Positions 3,896 through 35,416 are shown, numbered from the stretch's first letter. The stretch: DNA of 64,000 nt from Escherichia coli (GCF_013122565.1 NZ_CP053258.1); one strand, 5' to 3'. Translations and numbers: made by a program. The notes: generated by a model from the sequence alone, not told the origin.

Positions 3896-4243
<348 letters not shown>

Positions 4244-4245
4244 CA

Positions 4246-4270
4246 AGGGCCGCAAATGCGGTCCTTTTTT
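4246..4270 (+). terminator. hairpin plus T-run (third, degenerate copy of the BIME hairpin)
   Basis: aagggccgcaaatgcggtcc followed by ttttttatt. Confidence 0.5.
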
Positions 4271-27207: not shown

Positions 27208-28101
27208 TTAATCCTGACGAAGGACTTTGTGACCATAATCGAGTAACGCATCAGTGACTTTACGCATCATGCGGCTTTCAGGAGCAAAGCGGTGCCAGTA
27301 GAGCATCCGTCGTTGAAATAGCCCAGGCGTTAAGTCAATCAGTTCGCCGCTGGCCAGCTCTTTCTCTATTTGCAGGTGCGGAATCATACAGCAGGTGGTG
27401 CCCTGGCGAGCAAGTTGCACGAACGCTTCTGAAGAATTAACGATATGGCAGGGTACGCTGCCAGGAGGCAGATCGAAGTTTTGCTGCAAAAAGGCCTGGT
27501 GCATATCGTCAAGATGGTCAAACGCGACCACTGGCGCTTTTAATAATGCCGAACGCGTTACGCCGTTAGGGAAATATTTTTCGGCAAACGGTTTTGAGCT
27601 GACGAACAGATAGTCGAGCGCACCAAGTTTATCGACAAGACAACTCGGCAGCGCCTGATGTTGAATACTCACCGCGCCGACCACTTCGCCGCGACGCAGA
27701 CGTTCCTGAGTGCGGGTTTCATCTTCTACCTGCAAGTTGAGGCGGATAGGCGAGTCAGCCAACACAGGAGCCAGTGCCGGAAGCAACCACGTCGCCAGAC
27801 TGTCGGCGTTGACCGCCAGTGAAAGCAGCAGCGGAGTCGAACCGGTTTGTTCATCACCCAGCCACTCTTCTTCCAGCAACTCCACCTGGCGCAGCAGTGC
27901 CAGCAGTTTTTGCCCTTGTTCCGTCGGGCGCGGCGGTACGGTACGCACCAACAGCGGCTGCCCGAACATATTTTCCAGTTGCTTAATGCGCTGTGAGACG
28001 GCTGATTGTGTAATGCACAGCTTTTGTGCCGCGCGCTCAAATCCTCGTTCACGTATCACCGCATCCAGTGCCTGTAATGTTCTGTAGTCCGGGCGTTTCA
28101 T
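27208..28101 (-). CDS. argP: LysR-family regulator ArgP/IciA
   Basis: 297 aa. Confidence 0.95.
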
Positions 28102-28170
28102 TGCTGTTGTCTGCTCCTGGTAAATGCTTTTTCCGCACTATGACACAATTTTGCGTTGGGTACAGAGCAT

Positions 28171-29496
28171 TTAACGCATACAAAAGCGGTCGTAATGGAA
28201 GTTTTGGCTGGCAATCCCATTTTCATATAACCCTTTGCTGAGCGCTTTGGCAAAACTCTGTGGGCCGCAAAACCAGAAATGGGTGTCACCTTTATTTGCT
28301 ATTTTATCAGCAAGATAGTGCGACTGTAGGCGCTCACCTTTATGCGCATCAAGCAGATGCAGTGTGACACTGGCCAGGGCACAAAGTGAGGTAAGTTTAT
28401 CAACATACCATGCATCCTCGCTTCGGCTGACGCAATACCAGAGATCCACAGGAACACGGGACGCGCCATGCTGGTTCAGATACTCAAGCTGGGCGATAAA
28501 GGGGGTAATGCCGATGCCTCCAGCTATCCATACCTGGCGGGAGCAAGGGAGAGTAAAATCAAACTTTCCCCATGGCCCTTCAACGATGGCGGACTGGCCG
28601 ATTTTTATCGAGGATGCAAGGGTAGAGGTATAATCCCCTAAATTTTTGATGGCAAAGCGCAACGTGTTCTTCTCTATTGCATATGAAGCGATAGTAAAAG
28701 GGTGAGATTCTTTACTGTGTGCGAACGTTAAGAATGCAAACTGACCCGGAGAATAGTCGATGGCATGTTCCAGCTCCAGTATGACTTCGGTAATTTGTCC
28801 CGGATGGTTAACAATACTTTTAATGGTGGCCTGATGCTTGTTTTTATTACCGTTTAATTTCAGCAGCGAAATGAAAGCCGCAAAGACGCCTGGGATGGTA
28901 ATTAAAATTAATAAATACGCCGCAGGAGTTTCCCACCAATATGATTTAAACAAAGCAGTAAACACATGAAAGGCAATTGCCAGATAAAAAACAGGGAACA
29001 AACGGTGAACAAGATGAAATAAATGATAGGGAACCTTTTTGCTTAGAGACACGAAAACCATCGCTATCATAATAAACATTGCACATTCACCCGCTAACAG
29101 TCCCGCATGAAGCCAATTTTCTTGTACTGGCGTCAGGTTAATATCAACGATTTTACCAGGGTGAGTAAGCCAGCAAAAGGCGACGAATAACTGGGGTAAT
29201 TTTTCATCCAGCCAGTGGGTGAAAGCAAAAGCTATGGCGCATATTCCTGCCCACTTATGTAATCGCCACGCTTTATCCAGACCGCCCAGCACTTTGTTAA
29301 ACCATGATGAACGCAGCGATAAACACATCGTCAGCGTCATCAGACACCACGCAAGGGTTCCCGTAAAAAAGAGTATGTTTTGTCGAAGGAACCATATTAG
29401 CGCGATTGGCTTTTCACGAAAAATATCACCGGACGACAAAAAAATAAGGCATGTGACAAAGCAAACCAATGTACCTGTAAGATTAGCTTTTTTCAT
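28171..29496 (-). CDS. ferric-reductase-like membrane flavocytochrome (TM domain plus FAD/NAD(P)-binding domain)
   Basis: 441 aa; N-terminal polytopic His-containing helices, C-terminal ferredoxin-reductase-like fold; AT-rich by eye. Confidence 0.6.
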   Translation of the reverse strand: MKKANLTGTLVCFVTCLIFLSSGDIFREKPIALIWFLRQNILFFTGTLAWCLMTLTMCLSLRSSWFNKVLGGLDKAWRLHKWAGICAIAFAFTHWLDEKLPQLFVAFCWLTHPGKIVDINLTPVQENWLHAGLLAGECAMFIMIAMVFVSLSKKVPYHLFHLVHRLFPVFYLAIAFHVFTALFKSYWWETPAAYLLILITIPGVFAAFISLLKLNGNKNKHQATIKSIVNHPGQITEVILELEHAIDYSPGQFAFLTFAHSKESHPFTIASYAIEKNTLRFAIKNLGDYTSTLASSIKIGQSAIVEGPWGKFDFTLPCSRQVWIAGGIGITPFIAQLEYLNQHGASRVPVDLWYCVSRSEDAWYVDKLTSLCALASVTLHLLDAHKGERLQSHYLADKIANKGDTHFWFCGPQSFAKALSKGLYENGIASQNFHYDRFCMR

Positions 29497-29557
29497 TTTT
29501 TATTTCATTTTGGCAGAGGAGCATAGAATAGTTCCATGCTCCCGTTAAACAGGGTGA

Positions 29558-29818
29558 TTATTTATAGAAAATTACAGTGGCGTGGATATAATTTTTACCG
29601 GAGAAAGAACTGATGTAGTAATTACTGGCTTGCAATTCTTCCGCTTTCTCTTTGATTTGACTTTCAACGCCCGCTGGATTGCTATTGTGTGTGGAAATAC
29701 TCACTTTTGATATCTGTTCAAGATTATTGTCCGGTTTTTGTATCTCGGTTGCTGCAAATACGTGTCCTGTGAGAGTGCAAAGAAATAACGCGGCAAATAA
29801 ATTTTGCTTAATAGACAT
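29558..29818 (-). CDS. DUF1471 (YdgH/BhsA/McbA-family) secreted small protein
   Basis: 86 aa with signal peptide MSIKQNLFAALFLCTLTGHVFA. Confidence 0.6.
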   Translation of the reverse strand: MSIKQNLFAALFLCTLTGHVFAATEIQKPDNNLEQISKVSISTHNSNPAGVESQIKEKAEELQASNYYISSFSGKNYIHATVIFYK

Positions 29819-29834
29819 AATAACTCCTTTTATA

Positions 29835-30464
29835 TTAAAGAAAATGATTAAATACTTGTGTAATAAGATCAGGGATTTGCGCTAATGCATTTTGCTCGGC
29901 GAGTTCGCGTCCCGGTTGGGTTTTGTCGACGCCTTCCGCACGTAAAATATGTGTATTGGTAATGCCCATTAATTTCAGCGTGGCTTGCAGGTAACTTTCC
30001 TGATGATCCAGCGCCAGATGTGCTTTATCGCAATAGATACCGCCGCGCGTCGAGACAATAAACGTCGGTTTATCCGTCAGTAACCCAACGGCACCAGCGG
30101 AAGTAAAACGAAACGTTAAACCAGCCTGACAGACCTGATCTATCCAGGTTTTGAGGCCAGATGAAACGCTGTGATTAATCATCGGCGCGCCAATAATGAG
30201 CACATCGCACGATGCCAGTTCTTCAATAGCGGCGTGAATCCCATTCACCTCCTGCTGAATTTGTGCGTTCTCGCACTCCGCTTTACCGCAAAGCGCCAGA
30301 AAGGTTTCTTCACGCAAATGGGGCGGCGGCGTCAGGCCGACGTCGCGATGAATAATTGTGGCTTGCGGAAAGTGTTGGCAAAGCGCTTCTACCAGCGCCT
30401 GGCTTAATTTCCGCGAACTTGAATGCTTAAGCATTGGGCTGCTGTCGATATGGAGAATTTTCAT
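29835..30464 (-). CDS. FMN-dependent NAD(P)H azoreductase/quinone reductase-like flavoprotein
   Basis: 209 aa; flavodoxin-like fold pattern MKILHIDSSP...LIIGAPM.N. Confidence 0.65.
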   Translation of the reverse strand: MKILHIDSSPMLKHSSSRKLSQALVEALCQHFPQATIIHRDVGLTPPPHLREETFLALCGKAECENAQIQQEVNGIHAAIEELASCDVLIIGAPMINHSVSSGLKTWIDQVCQAGLTFRFTSAGAVGLLTDKPTFIVSTRGGIYCDKAHLALDHQESYLQATLKLMGITNTHILRAEGVDKTQPGRELAEQNALAQIPDLITQVFNHFL

Positions 30465-30564
30465 GGGCTTGCTCTCGTTTCTGCGATGAGAGAAGTTTAA
30501 CTGTTGTTGATATGGTGATTAAATAGACATAATTGAACTTCATTGTTGTGAAAATAGAACAATC

Positions 30565-31461
30565 ATGATCGACTGGAATGATTACTACTACTTTGCCCTG
30601 ATTGCCGATGAAGGCAGCTACAGCCAGGCGGCGCTGCGTGCGGGCGTGTCGAAATCGGTATTAAGCCGACGAATGGCTGCGCTGGAGGAGCGCCTTGGCG
30701 TACGGCTTATTCAGCGAACTACGCGGCGTCTGGCCCTGACGGCGGAAGGCGAACAGTTTGCCGTCGAATGTCGGGCGCTGGTGGCGCAGGGGGAACGGGC
30801 CAGAGCGGTGGTGATGGCCGCCCAGGAAAGCCCACAGGGAATGCTGCGCGTCAGCGCACCGGTATTTATGGCTGAAACATGGTTTGGTGAGTTTGTCAGT
30901 GAGTTTATCGCCCGCTGGCCCCTGGCGAAGGTGCAACTGCTGGCAATTAATCGCCCGGTGGATATGGTCGCTGAAGGCATTGATATTGCGCTGGTTACGG
31001 CTTCCGGCGCGCTTGCGGACTCGACGCTGCATTATAAAAAATTACATACCCAGGCCGATATTTTAGTTGCCAGTTCGCAGTGGCTGGCCCGCCATCCGCA
31101 GGTGAAGGTCATTGACGATCTTAACCGCGTTGACGGGATCCTCCGCCTGACGAACAATGGCGGGAGCCAGTGGCAGTTAATTAATGGCGAACAGGAGATT
31201 ACGCTGCAACCCGAGGCTCGTTTGCAGACGAATAACATTCGCGTCATGTTGCAGGCAGTGCTTGGTGGGAATGGCGTGGCGTTATTGCCTCAATTTGCCT
31301 GTAAACAGGGGCTTGCGAACGGTGAATTGGTGCGCCTGTTTGCACCGTGGAGCGGCATACCCAGACCGTTGTATGCTTTATTTGCGGGGCGAAAGGGGAT
31401 GCCCGCCATTGCGCGATATTTTATGGATGAGTTATCTGTACGGCTTGCCAACGGGGTCTGA
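30565..31461 (+). CDS. LysR-family transcriptional regulator (divergent from the redox operon)
   Basis: 298 aa; likely intact counterpart of K-12 pseudogene yqfE (from memory). Confidence 0.7.
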   Translation: MIDWNDYYYFALIADEGSYSQAALRAGVSKSVLSRRMAALEERLGVRLIQRTTRRLALTAEGEQFAVECRALVAQGERARAVVMAAQESPQGMLRVSAPVFMAETWFGEFVSEFIARWPLAKVQLLAINRPVDMVAEGIDIALVTASGALADSTLHYKKLHTQADILVASSQWLARHPQVKVIDDLNRVDGILRLTNNGGSQWQLINGEQEITLQPEARLQTNNIRVMLQAVLGGNGVALLPQFACKQGLANGELVRLFAPWSGIPRPLYALFAGRKGMPAIARYFMDELSVRLANGV

Positions 31462-31476
31462 CTCGCTTTTTTTGTA

Positions 31477-31609
31477 TATACTCGTCATACTTCAAGTAGC
31501 ATGTGCTGCGTCTGCGTTCGCTCACCCCAGTCACTTACTTCTGTAAGCTCCTGGGGATTCACTCTCTTGTCGCCTTCCTGCAACTCGAATTATTTAGAGT
31601 ATAATGCGT
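31477..31609. repeat. ERIC/IRU element, inverted relative to 16612-16750
   Basis: reverse complement aligns nearly base-for-base with the pgk-fbaA copy. Confidence 0.8.
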
Positions 31610-31639
31610 CTGAAATTTCATACCACAGGCGAAACGATC

Positions 31640-32299
31640 ATGACGCAGGATGAATTGAAAAAAGCAGTAGGATGGGCGGCACTTCAATATGTTCAGCCCG
31701 GCACCATTGTTGGCGTAGGTACAGGTTCTACCGCCGCACACTTTATTGACGCGCTCGGCACGATGAAAGGCCAGATTGAAGGGGCGGTTTCCAGTTCGGA
31801 CGCTTCCACTGAAAAACTGAAAAGCCTCGGCATTCACGTTTTTGATCTCAATGAAGTAGACAGCCTTGGCATCTACGTCGACGGCGCAGATGAAATCAAT
31901 GGTCACATGCAGATGATCAAAGGCGGCGGCGCGGCGCTGACCCGTGAAAAAATCATTGCTTCGGTTGCAGAAAAATTTATCTGTATTGCAGACGCTTCCA
32001 AGCAGGTTGATATTCTGGGTAAATTCCCGCTGCCAGTAGAAGTTATCCCGATGGCACGTAGTGCAGTGGCGCGCCAGCTGGTGAAACTGGGCGGTCGTCC
32101 GGAATACCGTCAGGGCGTGGTGACCGATAATGGCAACGTGATCCTCGACGTCCACGGCATGGAAATCCTTGACCCGATAGCGATGGAAAACGCCATAAAT
32201 GCGATTCCTGGCGTGGTGACTGTTGGCTTGTTTGCTAACCGTGGCGCGGACGTTGCGCTGATTGGTACACCTGACGGTGTCAAAACCATTGTGAAATGA
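31640..32299 (+). CDS. rpiA: ribose-5-phosphate isomerase A
   Basis: 219 aa from [12 protein letters not shown]. Confidence 0.95.
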
Positions 32300-32554
32300 T
32301 CTGACGGGGGAACCTCCCCCGTTAAAAAAATTCTCTTCATTAAATTTGGTGACATGTGTCACGTTTTTACCTGGCTATTGTCGATTGCTCTAAATAAATC
32401 CTCTAAACCAGCATATTCATCCAAGAAATACCTTTGCGTGATATTTCCTCAACATCGCGACGCAAACGTTCATATTGCCGCAATATTATTTTTTGATATG
32501 TTGAAAGGCGGATGCAAATCCGCACACAACATTTCAAAAGACAGGATTGGGTAA

Positions 32555-33787
32555 ATGGCAAAGGTATCGCTGGAGAAAGACAAGATTAAGTTTCTGCTGG
32601 TAGAAGGCGTGCACCAAAAGGCGCTGGAAAGCCTTCGTGCAGCGGGTTACACCAACATTGAATTTCACAAAGGCGCGCTGGATGATGAACAATTAAAAGA
32701 ATCCATCCGCGATGCCCACTTCATCGGCCTGCGATCCCGTACCCATCTGACTGAAGACGTGATCAACGCCGCAGAAAAACTGGTCGCTATCGGCTGTTTC
32801 TGTATCGGAACAAACCAGGTTGATCTGGATGCGGCGGCAAAGCGCGGGATCCCGGTATTTAACGCACCGTTCTCAAATACGCGCTCTGTTGCGGAGCTGG
32901 TGATTGGCGAACTGCTGCTGCTATTGCGCGGCGTACCGGAAGCCAATGCTAAAGCGCACCGTGGCGTGTGGAACAAACTGGCGGCGGGTTCTTTTGAAGC
33001 GCGCGGCAAAAAGCTGGGTATCATCGGCTACGGTCATATTGGTACACAATTGGGCATTCTGGCTGAATCGCTGGGAATGTATGTTTACTTTTATGATATT
33101 GAAAACAAACTGCCGCTGGGCAACGCCACTCAGGTACAGCATCTTTCTGACCTGCTGAATATGAGTGATGTGGTGAGTCTGCATGTACCAGAGAATCCGT
33201 CCACCAAAAATATGATGGGCGCGAAAGAAATTTCACTAATGAAGCCCGGCTCGCTGCTGATTAATGCTTCGCGCGGTACTGTGGTGGATATTCCGGCGCT
33301 GTGTGATGCGCTGGCGAGCAAACATCTGGCGGGGGCGGCAATCGACGTATTCCCGACGGAACCGGCGACCAATAGCGATCCATTTACCTCTCCGCTGTGT
33401 GAATTCGACAACGTCCTTCTGACGCCACACATTGGCGGTTCGACTCAGGAAGCGCAGGAGAATATCGGCCTGGAAGTTGCGGGTAAATTGATCAAGTATT
33501 CTGACAATGGCTCAACGCTCTCTGCGGTGAACTTCCCGGAAGTCTCGCTGCCACTGCACGGTGGGCGTCGTCTGATGCACATCCACGAAAACCGTCCGGG
33601 CGTGCTAACTGCGCTGAACAAAATCTTCGCCGAGCAGGGCGTCAACATCGCCGCGCAATATCTACAAACTTCCGCCCAGATGGGTTATGTGGTTATTGAT
33701 ATTGAAGCCGACGAAGACGTTGCCGAAAAAGCGCTGCAGGCAATGAAAGCTATTCCAGGTACCATTCGCGCCCGTCTGCTGTACTAA
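32555..33787 (+). CDS. serA: D-3-phosphoglycerate dehydrogenase
   Basis: 410 aa. Confidence 0.95.
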   Translation: MAKVSLEKDKIKFLLVEGVHQKALESLRAAGYTNIEFHKGALDDEQLKESIRDAHFIGLRSRTHLTEDVINAAEKLVAIGCFCIGTNQVDLDAAAKRGIPVFNAPFSNTRSVAELVIGELLLLLRGVPEANAKAHRGVWNKLAAGSFEARGKKLGIIGYGHIGTQLGILAESLGMYVYFYDIENKLPLGNATQVQHLSDLLNMSDVVSLHVPENPSTKNMMGAKEISLMKPGSLLINASRGTVVDIPALCDALASKHLAGAAIDVFPTEPATNSDPFTSPLCEFDNVLLTPHIGGSTQEAQENIGLEVAGKLIKYSDNGSTLSAVNFPEVSLPLHGGRRLMHIHENRPGVLTALNKIFAEQGVNIAAQYLQTSAQMGYVVIDIEADEDVAEKALQAMKAIPGTIRARLLY

Positions 33788-33807
33788 TTCCCCTTCTCTG
33801 AAAATCA

Positions 33808-33839
33808 ACGGGCAGGTCACTGGCTTGCCCGTTTTTTTA
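33808..33839 (+). terminator. serA intrinsic terminator
   Basis: cgggcaggtcactggcttgcccg followed by ttttttt. Confidence 0.75.
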
Positions 33840-33959
33840 TCCCTTCTCCACACTGTTGCCGCGTTGCGCATTCTACTTTGCGAGTCTGCTCCAGAAAATA
33901 AATCAAAGTCAGATCAATGCGTTGTGTTTATTTAATGGGGATTTACGATGGCAGGACAG

Positions 33960-34100
33960 CACAGGGCTGTAACGGTAAAGCCCTCACCGAAGCGAGGGCT
34001 TGAAGGAGAAGGGTTATGATGCGACTTGTCATCATACTGATTGTACTGTTACTGATAAGTTTCGGAGCTTATTAACAGTCAGTCTCAGGGGAGGAGTCAT
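33960..34100 (-). ncRNA. sibC: Sib-family antisense sRNA (approximate boundaries)
   Basis: inferred from Ibs ORF position and family architecture; ends not mapped. Confidence 0.35.
34016..34075 (+). CDS. ibsC: Ibs-family type I toxin (19 aa, MMRLVIILIVLLLISFGAY)
   Basis: below ORF-track size cutoff; near-identical to recalled IbsC. Confidence 0.8.
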   Translation: MMRLVIILIVLLLISFGAY

Positions 34101-34352
34101 CCTCCCTTACCCTTACTCACTAAATTAGGTCAAAGAATCAACGATGTCAATCAGGGCGATGCGGGGTGCATCGCCCTGAACCGATCTTTTTGATAGCCAC
34201 ATCATCGCCCGCGTTTACTGCTGCAATAAATCCCTTTTCCCTGCAATGTATGTCTGCCTTACATGACGTTTTACGAGTGCACTCGAAGAAAAGATTTAAA
34301 GGCAGATCAATGCGTTGTGTTTATTTAATGGGGATTTACGATGGCAGGGCAG

Positions 34353-34493
34353 CATGGGGCTGTAACGGTAAAGCCCTCACCGAAGCGAGTGCTTGAAGGA
34401 GAAGGGTTATGATGCGACTTGCCATCATACTGATTGTACTGTTACTCATAAGTTTCCCAGCTTATTAACAGTCAGTCTCAGGGGCGGAGTCAT
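34353..34493 (-). ncRNA. Sib-family antisense sRNA, second copy (approximate)
   Basis: by analogy with copy 1. Confidence 0.3.
34409..34468 (+). CDS. Ibs-family type I toxin (19 aa, MMRLAIILIVLLLISFPAY)
   Basis: small ORF in second repeat copy; three residues differ from copy 1. Confidence 0.75.
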   Translation: MMRLAIILIVLLLISFPAY

Positions 34494-34568
34494 CCTCCCT
34501 TACCCTTACTCACTAAATTAGGTCAAAGAATCAACGATGTCAATCAGGGCGATGCAGGTGTGTCGCCC

Positions 34569-35117
34569 TCACCACTCCCAGACTTTCGACGGTGTAACCA
34601 CCGCAGGAAGAGGGATATCCCACTCTTCAACGGGGAGTTTTTCCACCAACTGACAATCATGCGCATAACCCACCGGTTGCATTTTATAGTGCTGCCAGTT
34701 TTGTAAGGTCCGATCATAAAAACCACCGCCCATTCCCAGGCGCTGGCCGTACTCATCAAAGGCGACCAGCGGTGTGATCAACACGTCTAATCGGGAAAGG
34801 GGTAGCACGTCACGCACATCCAATTTTGGCTCATGGATCTTCAACCTGTTCATCACCAGTTCGCTTTGCGGATGGTAATTCAGGAACAGCAAATTACCGG
34901 CACTAAAGGGATGCAAAACTGGAAGATATACGCGCTTACCGGCGCGCCAGAGTTGTTCTATGAGTGGCTGGGTGTCGAGTTCGCCATCAAAAGAGAGGAA
35001 TACAGCGACCGTATGTGCCATCACCACCGGGGGATAAGTCATCATCCGGGTAGCGGCTTGTTGACCCATTTCCTGCTGTTGTTCCGGCGTTAACGTACGA
35101 CGACGTTGCCGAATCAT
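34569..35117 (-). CDS. ygfA: 5-formyltetrahydrofolate cyclo-ligase
   Basis: start at MIRQRRRTL gives 182 aa as recalled for K-12; an in-frame ATG at 35171 (MTQLPEL) is an alternative. Confidence 0.85.
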   Translation of the reverse strand: MIRQRRRTLTPEQQQEMGQQAATRMMTYPPVVMAHTVAVFLSFDGELDTQPLIEQLWRAGKRVYLPVLHPFSAGNLLFLNYHPQSELVMNRLKIHEPKLDVRDVLPLSRLDVLITPLVAFDEYGQRLGMGGGFYDRTLQNWQHYKMQPVGYAHDCQLVEKLPVEEWDIPLPAVVTPSKVWEW

Positions 35118-35190
35118 TTTGCGGATTTCTTGTCGGGATAATGTCAGTGGGAGTTCTGGTAGTTGCGTCATGGCTGGTGCCAGATAAGAA

Positions 35191-35374
35191 GGGAATCTCC
35201 GAGATGCCGCCGCAGGCTGTAACCCTTGAACCCTTGGTTCAAGGTGAATGTGTCGTCGCAGTTTTAAGGCTTCTCGGACGGACCGAGCATGCTCACCAAC
35301 CGCGGAGCGCCACATTCTTGTGGTATGAAATATCGGCTCAGGGGACTGGCCCGCTTGCGAACATCTCAGAGAAA
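35191..35374 (-). ncRNA. ssrS: 6S RNA
   Basis: reverse complement reads ATTTCTCTGAGATGTTCGCAAGCGGGCCAGTCCCCTGAGCC...CGGAGATTCCCT, matching 6S RNA as recalled. Confidence 0.9.
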
Positions 35375-35416
35375 TTTTGTCTTCACGGTTACTCTACCAC
35401 AGTAAACCGAAAAGTG

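What the first reader, a model, noticed from the sequence alone, without database searches (positions are those of the whole stretch)
33903..34568. Two tandem Ibs/Sib type I toxin-antitoxin units in the serA-ygfA spacer
Two copies of an approximately 265-bp unit (33910-34177 and 34303-34566) each carry a 19-codon ORF, MMRLVIILIVLLLISFGAY and MMRLAIILIVLLLISFPAY. Both are too short for the ORF track and match the Ibs hydrophobic toxin family, whose mRNAs are fully overlapped by antisense Sib sRNAs. From memory, K-12 has a single SibC/IbsC unit at this locus, while tandem pairs occur elsewhere (sibA/B, sibD/E). The copies have diverged at several positions including three toxin residues, which matters because Sib-Ibs pairing is reported to be cognate-specific. 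The second unit ends 2 nt from the ygfA stop and lies about 600 bp from ssrS.
Basis: partly seen in the sequence, partly recalled or inferred. Interest (0 to 1): 0.5.

Follow-up and report, generated by a model that had tools for sequence, protein, structure and literature searches.

The report
Two tandem IbsC/SibC toxin-antitoxin units
The serA-fau spacer really does hold two adjacent copies of the known Ibs/Sib small-toxin/antisense-RNA module, but about a third of complete E. coli genomes have the same two-copy arrangement and it is already annotated, so it is ordinary.

Summary
Observation confirmed. Two 268-bp units (33910-34177 and 34303-34570, period 393 bp, 95.5% identical) each carry a 19-codon ibs ORF on the + strand. 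Each also carries a full-length Sib RNA on the - strand (Rfam RF00113, 133.8 and 132.8 bits; gathering score 56). Using the curated K-12 sibC/ibsC register, Sib-1 is 34114..33974 and Sib-2 is 34507..34367. The sib promoters match K-12 sibC exactly.

The arrangement is not new. The two-unit junction occurs in 1,805-1,869 of 5,426 complete E. coli genomes, including O157:H7. PGAP annotates both ORFs, and both peptides are existing RefSeq proteins. K-12 and BL21 have one unit, and no genome has three.

The two Sib RNAs differ at six positions. Three are in the TRD1 recognition domain and none is in TRD2, so I predict that each Sib can repress both ibs mRNAs. This has not been tested.

The only window-specific features are two Sib-2 substitutions that open one mismatch each in stem P2 and the terminator stem (-55.3 to -44.7 kcal/mol). 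I found them nowhere else, and they may be sequencing errors. Already known; low interest.

The parts
33910..34177 (.). Unit 1 (serA-proximal) ibs/sib repeat core, 268 bp
   Evidence: It aligns with unit 2 at 95.5% identity, and 20-nt windows show sharp boundaries. It is 98.1-98.5% identical to unit 1 of four two-copy E. coli genomes.
34303..34570 (.). Unit 2 (fau-proximal) ibs/sib repeat core, 268 bp. It is mosaic: the ibs promoter segment is of the unit-1/single-copy type, while the ORF and end hairpin are of the unit-2 type.
   Evidence: Segment comparison. The promoter segment is 51/51 identical to K-12, against 42-46/51 to unit 2 of the other two-copy genomes. The ORF is 60/60 identical to EC0885 and RM10740 unit 2.
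33922..33949 (+). Putative ibs-1 promoter (TTGTGT, 16 nt, TACGAT). The identical copy for ibs-2 is at 34315-34342.
   Evidence: Read from the sequence. The segment is 100% identical between the two units, and 33910-33960 is 50/51 identical to K-12. Han et al. mapped the ibsC 5' end to conserved promoter elements and a 159-nt mRNA (PMC2943612). The exact hexamers are my inference.
34016..34075 (+). ibs-1 ORF, 19 codons plus stop: MMRLVIILIVLLLISFGAY. The Shine-Dalgarno AAGGAG lies upstream.
   Evidence: Translation. The peptide is identical to WP_071524576.1, 'type I toxin-antitoxin system toxin IbsC'. The ORF is 60/60 nt identical in every unit-1 copy examined.
33974..34114 (-). Sib-1 antitoxin RNA, 141 nt, +1 A. 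TRD1 is 34069-34047, TRD2 is 34016-34000, and the terminator hairpin is 34001-33978.
   Evidence: Rfam RF00113 match, 133.8 bits. The register was set from Han's G49CU51/C107-C113 positions and oligos, and it equals the K-12 annotation, where the ibsC ORF is SibC +40..+99. The fold is identical to K-12 SibC: -55.3 kcal/mol, z -6.75.
34122..34150 (-). sib-1 promoter (TTGACA 34150-34145, 17 nt, TAATTT 34127-34122). The identical sib-2 promoter is at 34515-34543.
   Evidence: The 45 nt upstream of +1 are identical in both units and in BL21/K-12 sibC. The Rfam model begins at this -35 element.
34409..34468 (+). ibs-2 ORF, 19 codons plus stop: MMRLAIILIVLLLISFPAY
   Evidence: Translation. The peptide is identical to WP_001387035.1, 'Ibs family toxin'. 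The same peptide pair occurs in 8 of 19 metagenome loci.
34367..34507 (-). Sib-2 antitoxin RNA, 141 nt. TRD1 is 34462-34440 and TRD2 is 34409-34393. It carries two private substitutions: 34485 (Sib +23 U>G, P2 stem) and 34390 (Sib +118 C>A, terminator stem).
   Evidence: Rfam match, 132.8 bits. The fold keeps the same architecture with two 1x1 mismatches: -44.7 kcal/mol, z -2.28. The terminator hairpin drops from -17.8 to -10.7 kcal/mol. Both substitutions are absent from the 13 other full-length units compared; the truncated SCPM-O-B-8794 unit 2, which covers only the 34390 site, has the usual G there. They are also absent from complete E. coli genomes and from metagenomes.
34154..34176 (.). 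GC-rich hairpin that closes unit 1 (GGGCGATGC-GGGGT-GCATCGCCC). Its unit-2 counterpart at 34547-34568 abuts the fau stop codon.
   Evidence: Read from the sequence. It lies just upstream of each sib -35 element. Its function (a fau terminator or an insulator) is inferred only.
34178..34302 (.). Inter-unit spacer, 125 bp, found only in two-copy genomes
   Evidence: A junction query matches 1,869 of 5,426 genomes, 1,805 of them at 80% coverage or more. No RNA family matches here even at permissive thresholds.

Best explanation
The spacer carries two intact, tandem Ibs/Sib type I toxin-antitoxin modules of the IbsC/SibC type.

How each unit works:
- The + strand gives an ibs mRNA of about 160 nt. 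It encodes a 19-residue hydrophobic inner-membrane peptide.
- The - strand gives a 141-nt Sib RNA from a TTGACA-17-TAATTT promoter. This RNA is perfectly complementary to the mRNA across the Shine-Dalgarno sequence and the whole ORF.
- Pairing starts at two recognition domains. TRD1 is Sib +46-68, opposite ORF codons 11-18. TRD2 is Sib +99-115, opposite the translation initiation region.
- Pairing blocks toxin synthesis and leads to mRNA decay.
- If Ibs is made, it depolarises the membrane and lowers ATP.

This is the two-copy allele of a common and old copy-number polymorphism at serA-fau. K-12 has the one-copy allele.

TRD2, the P1 stem and the P6 GUCG are identical in the two units, so each Sib is predicted to repress both ibs mRNAs, making the antitoxins partly redundant.

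Shown here: sequence identity, register, family membership, folds and population frequency. Inferred: expression, toxicity and cross-repression.
For: - Family: Rfam SIB_RNA matches at 133.8 and 132.8 bits, against a gathering score of 56.
- Register: it matches the curated K-12 sibC (141 nt) and ibsC annotation and Han et al.'s numbered positions and oligos.
- Promoter: the sib promoter and +1 are identical to K-12 from -45 to +16.
- Fold: Sib-1 folds exactly like K-12 SibC.
- Peptides: both are identical to RefSeq Ibs toxins. The 19-aa products at this locus are recorded as PF13956 Ibs_toxin.
- Frequency: the two-copy junction is in 1,805-1,869 of 5,426 complete E. coli genomes, and no genome has more than two units.
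- Age: unit-1 copies cluster at 98.1-98.5% identity, against 92-95.5% to unit-2 copies. The unit-1 ORF is 60/60 nt identical even in a lineage whose flanks are about 90% identical.
- Cross-pairing: a 31-bp perfect helix spans TRD2 in both cross combinations. Han et al. found that either TRD suffices, and that engineered 22-25-bp TRD helices retarget SibC (PMC2943612).
- Toxin action: membrane depolarisation by IbsC (review PMC8309996) and FoF1 ATP synthase inhibition by Salmonella IbsA (bioRxiv 10.1101/2025.05.26.656083).
Against: - No expression or toxicity data exist for this genome.
- The generic promoter/terminator scan did not flag the sib or ibs signals.
- Sib-2 has two stem mismatches and a weaker terminator hairpin.
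- Ibs-2 carries V5A. A review citing Mok 2010 reports V5 as the one N-terminal residue that matters for IbsC toxicity.
- The primary papers Fozo 2008 and Mok 2010 could not be read.
Confidence: 0.92

Rival explanations
1. Unit 2 is a decaying copy. Its antitoxin is structurally weakened (P2 and terminator stem mismatches) and its toxin is attenuated (V5A), so only unit 1 is a fully working module.
For: - Sib-2 has an MFE of -44.7 against -55.3 kcal/mol, its z-score falls from -6.75 to -2.28, and its terminator hairpin drops from -17.8 to -10.7 kcal/mol.
- V5 is reported as important for IbsC toxicity.
- Both Sib-2 substitutions are private to this window.
Against: - The ORF, Shine-Dalgarno sequence, both promoters, TRD1, TRD2 and the overall Sib architecture are intact.
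- The V5A/P17 peptide is the common unit-2 allele: it is in EC0885, RM10740, MOD1-EC7003 and 8 of 19 metagenome loci. That argues for its maintenance.
- Two random substitutions would both fall in paired positions 42% of the time.
- A terminator hairpin of -10.7 kcal/mol is still substantial.
Confidence: 0.12
2. The two units are functionally orthogonal: each Sib represses only its own ibs mRNA, as reported for most of the K-12 Sib family. On this reading the divergence at codon 17/TRD1 is what keeps them separate.
For: - Three of the six Sib-1/Sib-2 differences lie in TRD1 (+50, +51, +61).
- They include the exact G49CU51 discriminator triplet that Han et al. used to retarget SibC.
- Codon 17 is hypervariable across alleles (AGC, GGA, CCA).
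Against: - TRD2 (+99-115), the P1 stem and the P6 GUCG are identical, giving a 31-bp uninterrupted cross-helix.
- Han et al. showed that SibC with a foreign TRD1 still represses ibsC through TRD2; only changing both domains abolished repression.
- The TRD1 enrichment is marginal (P = 0.055).
Confidence: 0.15
3. The duplication is an assembly artefact, in which one unit was assembled twice.
For: None beyond the general risk that repeats pose for assembly.
Against: - The copies differ at 12 positions and are separated by a unique 125-bp spacer.
- The same junction is present in more than 1,800 complete genomes and in metagenome contigs.
Confidence: 0.01

Closest known systems
IbsC/SibC of E. coli K-12 (b4665/b4446), serA-fau spacer
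   Same: - Same locus and the same flanking genes.
- The same 141-nt Sib register, with the ORF at Sib +40..+99.
- Identical sib promoter, TRD2, P1 stem and P6 stem-loop (K-12 and Sib-1 are identical there; Sib-2 has one loop substitution at +86 that leaves the GUCG intact). The P7 terminator is identical in Sib-1 only; Sib-2 differs in P7 at +118. The Sib-1 fold is identical to SibC.
- 19-aa toxins that differ only at residue 17 (unit 1) or at residues 5 and 17 (unit 2).
   Different: - K-12 has one unit and the window has two.
- Codon 17 is AGC (Ser) in K-12, GGA (Gly) in unit 1 and CCA (Pro) in unit 2. This changes the TRD1 discriminator triplet.
Two-copy serA-fau allele of other E. coli (e.g. 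O157:H7 FRIK1989, EC0885, RM10740, PT62), annotated by PGAP as ibsC plus an Ibs family toxin
   Same: - Same architecture, period and spacer.
- The unit-1 ORF is 60/60 nt identical.
- The unit-2 ORF is 60/60 identical to EC0885 and RM10740.
- The same peptide pair occurs in 8 of 19 metagenome loci.
   Different: - The window's whole spacer is at most 97.8% identical to any complete E. coli genome.
- Its unit 2 has a unit-1/single-copy-type ibs promoter segment.
- Its unit 2 also carries two private Sib-2 substitutions.
Tandem sibA/sibB and sibD/sibE pairs of K-12, and other tandem type I loci (ldr/rdl, zorO-orzO/zorP-orzP)
   Same: They show tandem duplication of a whole toxin/antisense unit within one intergenic region. 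Fozo et al. 2010 describe this as a general property of type I loci (PMC2887945).
   Different: - They lie at different loci.
- According to Han et al., all five K-12 Sib RNAs vary at both TRD1 and TRD2. The two units here share an identical TRD2.

Membership tests
Ibs/Sib type I toxin-antitoxin (Rfam RF00113 SIB_RNA; Pfam PF13956 Ibs_toxin) | The antisense RNA matches the SIB_RNA covariance model above the gathering score. | tested here: met
   Matches of 133.8 and 132.8 bits against a gathering score of 56, both covering the full model.
Ibs/Sib type I toxin-antitoxin (Rfam RF00113 SIB_RNA; Pfam PF13956 Ibs_toxin) | An 18-19-codon hydrophobic ORF lies on the opposite strand and is wholly overlapped by the Sib RNA. 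| tested here: met
   The ORFs at 34016-34075 and 34409-34468 occupy Sib +40..+99, as in the curated K-12 annotation.
Ibs/Sib type I toxin-antitoxin (Rfam RF00113 SIB_RNA; Pfam PF13956 Ibs_toxin) | The peptide belongs to the Ibs toxin protein family. | tested here: met
   - Both peptides are identical to RefSeq WP_071524576.1 (IbsC) and WP_001387035.1 (Ibs family toxin).
- The 19-aa products at this locus in other assemblies are recorded as PF13956.
Ibs/Sib type I toxin-antitoxin (Rfam RF00113 SIB_RNA; Pfam PF13956 Ibs_toxin) | The Sib promoter, +1 and intrinsic terminator correspond to the experimentally defined SibC ends. | tested here: met
   The sequence is identical to K-12 from -45 to +16 in both units. 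The terminator is identical in Sib-1 and has one stem mismatch in Sib-2. The generic consensus scan did not detect these signals.
Ibs/Sib type I toxin-antitoxin (Rfam RF00113 SIB_RNA; Pfam PF13956 Ibs_toxin) | Both RNAs are expressed, and the Sib RNA is abundant. | not testable with these tools
   There are no transcript data for this genome.
Ibs/Sib type I toxin-antitoxin (Rfam RF00113 SIB_RNA; Pfam PF13956 Ibs_toxin) | Ibs overexpression is toxic, and the cognate Sib relieves the toxicity. | not testable with these tools
   This is known for K-12 IbsC/SibC (PMC2943612; review PMC8309996). It has not been tested for the G17 or A5/P17 alleles.

The most novel reading that the evidence does not exclude
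In this lineage the second module may have become asymmetric. Sib-2 carries two private stem-opening substitutions, including one in its terminator. Unit 2 has also acquired a unit-1-type ibs promoter. As a result, ibs-2 might be held in check mainly in trans, by Sib-1 acting through the shared TRD2. That would be a natural case of one antitoxin RNA policing two tandem paralogous toxins, with TRD1/codon 17 free to diversify.
Probability: 0.08. Interest if true: 0.3.

Novelty: already known. Interest (0 to 1): 0.1.

Why it matters
It matters little beyond correct annotation. Both 19-codon toxin genes and both Sib RNAs should be annotated here, because ORF callers with length floors miss them.

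There are two modest points of value:
- The differences between the copies concentrate on the TRD1 discriminator triplet (codon 17) while TRD2 stays identical. This makes the common two-copy allele a convenient natural test of the two-domain recognition model of Han et al.
- The locus is an old presence/absence polymorphism, with two units in about 34% of E. coli genomes. It could therefore serve as a marker, or as a case study in how tandem type I modules are maintained.

Tried and rejected
- **Generic promoter/terminator scan.** It found only a promoter-like site inside the ORF and the serA terminator, and missed the real sib and ibs signals. I did not treat this as a refutation, because the sequences equal those of K-12 sibC.
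- **Tandem Repeats Finder.** It did not report the 393-bp repeat, because there are only two copies and the spacer has diverged.
- **Primary papers.** Fozo 2008, the Fozo/Hemm/Storz 2008 review and Mok 2010 are not held. Their content is cited only through later papers.
- **Identifying the source lineage.**
  - The best match of the spacer in complete E. coli genomes is 97.8%.
  - The best match for 28000-33787 is 97.1-97.6% at 98% coverage or more.
  - The window's Fau protein is a very common allele and does not discriminate.
  - The species-representative scan returned only two loci, neither of them the source.
  - The lineage remains unidentified. It is a divergent Escherichia/E. coli lineage.
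- **Search for the private Sib-2 alleles elsewhere.** There were 0 metagenome hits for the +118 variant. In the positive-control scan, 0 of 19 loci carry the +23 variant.
- **Reading meaning into the two stem hits.** I rejected this: the chance probability is 0.42.
- **A permissive Rfam scan of the locus.** It found nothing else credible.

Full report
**1. What is in the sequence**

The serA-fau (ygfA) spacer runs from 33788 to 34568. It lies between serA (32555-33787, +) and fau (34569-35171, -), and ssrS (6S RNA) follows at 35192-35375 (-).

The spacer contains two direct repeats with sharp core boundaries, at 33910-34177 and 34303-34570. The period is 393 bp and core identity is 95.5%. A 125-bp spacer (34178-34302) separates them.

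Weak similarity continues about 70 bp upstream of each core. The local alignment score is 15, against 8.9 +/- 1.6 for shuffles, and 5 of 500 shuffles reach it. This suggests that the original duplication was somewhat longer and is old.

Each core ends in a GC-rich hairpin (34154-34176 and 34547-34568). The second hairpin directly abuts the fau stop codon.

**2. Family assignment**

- Rfam's SIB_RNA model (RF00113) matches the minus strand of both units over its full length. The scores are 133.8 and 132.8 bits, against a gathering score of 56.
- The Rfam model is offset from the real RNA. It starts at the -35 TTGACA of the sib promoter and stops before the terminator.
- I therefore set the true register from Han et al. 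2010 (PMC2943612). Their G49CU51 and C107UCCUUC113 positions and their probe oligos fix +1 and the 3' end.
- The curated K-12 annotation gives the same register: sibC is 141 nt and the ibsC ORF occupies SibC +40..+99.
- This places Sib-1 at 34114..33974 and Sib-2 at 34507..34367, both starting with A.
- The 45 nt upstream of +1 (TTGACA, 17 nt, TAATTT) are identical in both units and in BL21/K-12.
- On the + strand, the ORFs at 34016-34075 (MMRLVIILIVLLLISFGAY) and 34409-34468 (MMRLAIILIVLLLISFPAY) each follow an AAGGAG Shine-Dalgarno sequence.
- Both peptides are identical to RefSeq proteins: WP_071524576.1 (IbsC) and WP_001387035.1 (Ibs family toxin). Homologous 19-aa products at this locus are recorded as Pfam PF13956 Ibs_toxin.

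**3.

- Only two residues differ (V5A, G17P). The third differing codon, Leu13 CTG/CTC, is synonymous.
- The simple consensus scan found no sib-type promoter or terminator. That reflects its thresholds: the -10 element TAATTT matches only 3 of 6 consensus positions, and the terminator tail is UUUACC. The sequences themselves equal those of the experimentally characterised K-12 sibC.

**4. How common the arrangement is**

- The whole spacer matches 5,425 of 5,426 complete E. coli genomes. K-12- and BL21-type genomes show a 389-bp single-unit spacer.
- A query spanning the end of unit 1, the inter-unit spacer and the start of unit 2 matches 1,869 genomes, 1,805 of them at 80% coverage or more. 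That is about 34%, and it includes O157:H7.
- No genome has more than one such junction, so two units is the maximum.
- PGAP already annotates both ORFs in these genomes.
- In a positive-control metagenome scan, 8 of 19 loci were two-unit loci with exactly the window's peptide pair.
- Fozo et al. 2010 already noted that ibs-sib loci are duplicated within intergenic regions, that copy number varies between strains, and that O157:H7 Sakai has seven ibs genes (PMC2887945).
- The arrangement is therefore a known and annotated polymorphism.

**5. Evolution of the two units**

- The window's unit 1 is 98.1-98.5% identical to unit 1 of PT62, O157 FRIK1989, EC0885 and RM10740. It is only 92-95.5% identical to the unit-2 copies.
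- The unit-1 ORF is 60/60 nt identical in all of them. This holds even in strain SCPM-O-B-8794, whose flanks are only about 90% identical to the window.
- The two units are therefore distinct, long-lived lineages.
- Single-copy genomes (K-12, BL21, VCSW7, MOD1-EC7003) carry a unit with a unit-1-type left end and a unit-2-type right end. Unequal recombination between the two units would produce exactly this.
- The window's unit 2 is itself mosaic. Its ibs promoter segment is 51/51 identical to K-12 and to PT62 unit 1, but only 42-46/51 to the unit 2 of the other two-copy genomes. Its ORF and terminal hairpin are of the unit-2 type.
- Gene conversion or recombination is the likely cause. This is an inference.

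**6. Mechanism**

Established knowledge of IbsC/SibC:
- The Sib RNA pairs with the fully complementary ibs mRNA through two independent recognition domains. TRD1 is +46-68 and lies within the ORF. TRD2 is +99-115 and lies at the translation initiation region; it needs the P1 stem and the P6 GUCG.
- Either domain alone is sufficient for repression. Swapping G49CU51 or C107-C113 retargets SibC to ibsD (PMC2943612).
- IbsC overexpression depolarises the membrane (review PMC8309996). Salmonella IbsA inhibits the Fo sector of ATP synthase (bioRxiv 10.1101/2025.05.26.656083).
- K-12 SibC starts with A, is NAD-capped, and is stimulated by ppGpp/DksA (PMC12956327). Both window promoters and +1 sites are identical to sibC, so the same behaviour is expected. 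This is an inference.

What I found here:
- Sib-1 and Sib-2 differ at +23, +50, +51, +61, +86 and +118.
- Three of these lie in TRD1, including the discriminator triplet, which is the antisense of codon 17. None lies in TRD2.
- In the cross combinations, TRD1 pairing is interrupted. However, a 31-bp perfect helix spans TRD2 (+87..+117). This is longer than the 22-25-bp helices that sufficed in Han's retargeting experiments.
- I therefore predict mutual cross-repression rather than strict cognate specificity.
- The statistics are weak: three or more of six differences in TRD1 has P = 0.055, and none of six in TRD2 has P = 0.46.

**7. What is peculiar to this window**

- Two Sib-2 substitutions are found nowhere else: 34485 A>C (Sib +23 U>G) and 34390 G>T (Sib +118 C>A).
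- They are absent from the 13 other full-length units compared. The truncated SCPM-O-B-8794 unit 2, which covers only the 34390 site, has the usual G there.
- No complete E. coli genome carries them. The best match over 34340-34570 is 98.3%.
- JGI metagenomes do not carry them either (0 of 19 loci).
- Each opens a 1x1 mismatch, one in stem P2 and one in the terminator stem P7.
- Sib-2 keeps the SibC architecture, but its stability falls from -55.3 to -44.7 kcal/mol and its z-score from -6.75 to -2.28. The terminator hairpin falls from -17.8 to -10.7 kcal/mol.
- Because 65% of Sib positions are paired, two random changes would both hit stems 42% of the time. No functional conclusion is warranted, and sequencing error cannot be excluded.
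- Ibs-2 carries V5A at the one N-terminal residue reported to matter for IbsC toxicity (citing Mok 2010, which I could not read). This allele is the common unit-2 peptide, so it is evidently maintained.

**8. Source of the window**

- The serA-zapA core is 98.5-98.6% identical to BL21 and PT62.
- The best spacer match among complete E. coli genomes is 97.8%.
- The best match for 28000-33787 is 97.1-97.6% at 98% coverage or more.
- The window is not one of the GTDB representative genomes returned by the pattern scan.
- It therefore comes from an Escherichia/E. coli lineage that is not closely represented in the collections searched. I could not identify it.

**9. Verdict**

The observation and its interpretation are correct apart from minor errors, but the feature is already known and routinely annotated. 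Interest is low. The residual, modestly interesting possibility is an asymmetric arrangement in which Sib-1 is the main repressor of both toxins.

Noticed in passing
window 3896-4266: A 174-bp unit is repeated 2.1 times in tandem at 95% identity. Each copy has a GC hairpin (GAAGGGCCGCGAAAGCGGCCCTTC) and two REP-like palindromes. Rfam calls ES036 (CssrF) sRNA at 3983-4025 and 4157-4199 within it. It is probably a BIME/REP cluster downstream of a gene that ends at about 3876.
   Followed up: partly
window 28171-31461: A four-gene block lies between argP (27208-28101, -) and rpiA. It encodes a ferredoxin reductase family protein, a YdgH/BhsA/McbA family protein, an FMN-dependent NADH-azoreductase and a divergent LysR regulator. 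Only 239 of 5,426 complete E. coli genomes cover at least 80% of 28000-33787, so the block is accessory. The best identity is only about 97%.
   Followed up: partly
window 34000-34150 and 34393-34543 (Rfam hit coordinates): The Rfam SIB_RNA model is offset from the real RNA. It includes the sib promoter (-35 TTGACA to +1) and omits the 3' terminator hairpin. Rfam coordinates therefore should not be used as the Sib gene boundaries.
   Followed up: yes
related loci L002-L005, L008, L012-L013, L018-L036: Codon 17 of the ibsC-type ORF, which is the antisense of the SibC TRD1 discriminator G49CU51, is hypervariable across alleles: Ser AGC, Gly GGA, Pro CCA, and Leu16-Pro17 TTG CCA. The rest of the ORF is nearly invariant. 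Single-copy loci can carry S17, P17, G17 or L16/P17, and some two-copy loci pair S17 with P17.
   Followed up: partly
E. coli genomes record NZ_CM135829.1 (hit H56): A 4.83-Mb genome labelled 'DH5alpha' carries the two-unit junction, although K-12 has one unit. This suggests a mislabelled strain. Separately, one match to the unit lies on a record classed as a plasmid.
   Followed up: no
window 33807-33833: A strong intrinsic terminator (12-bp stem, T7 tail) follows serA, 20 nt after its stop codon. It was the only terminator-like site the generic scan found in the spacer.
   Followed up: no
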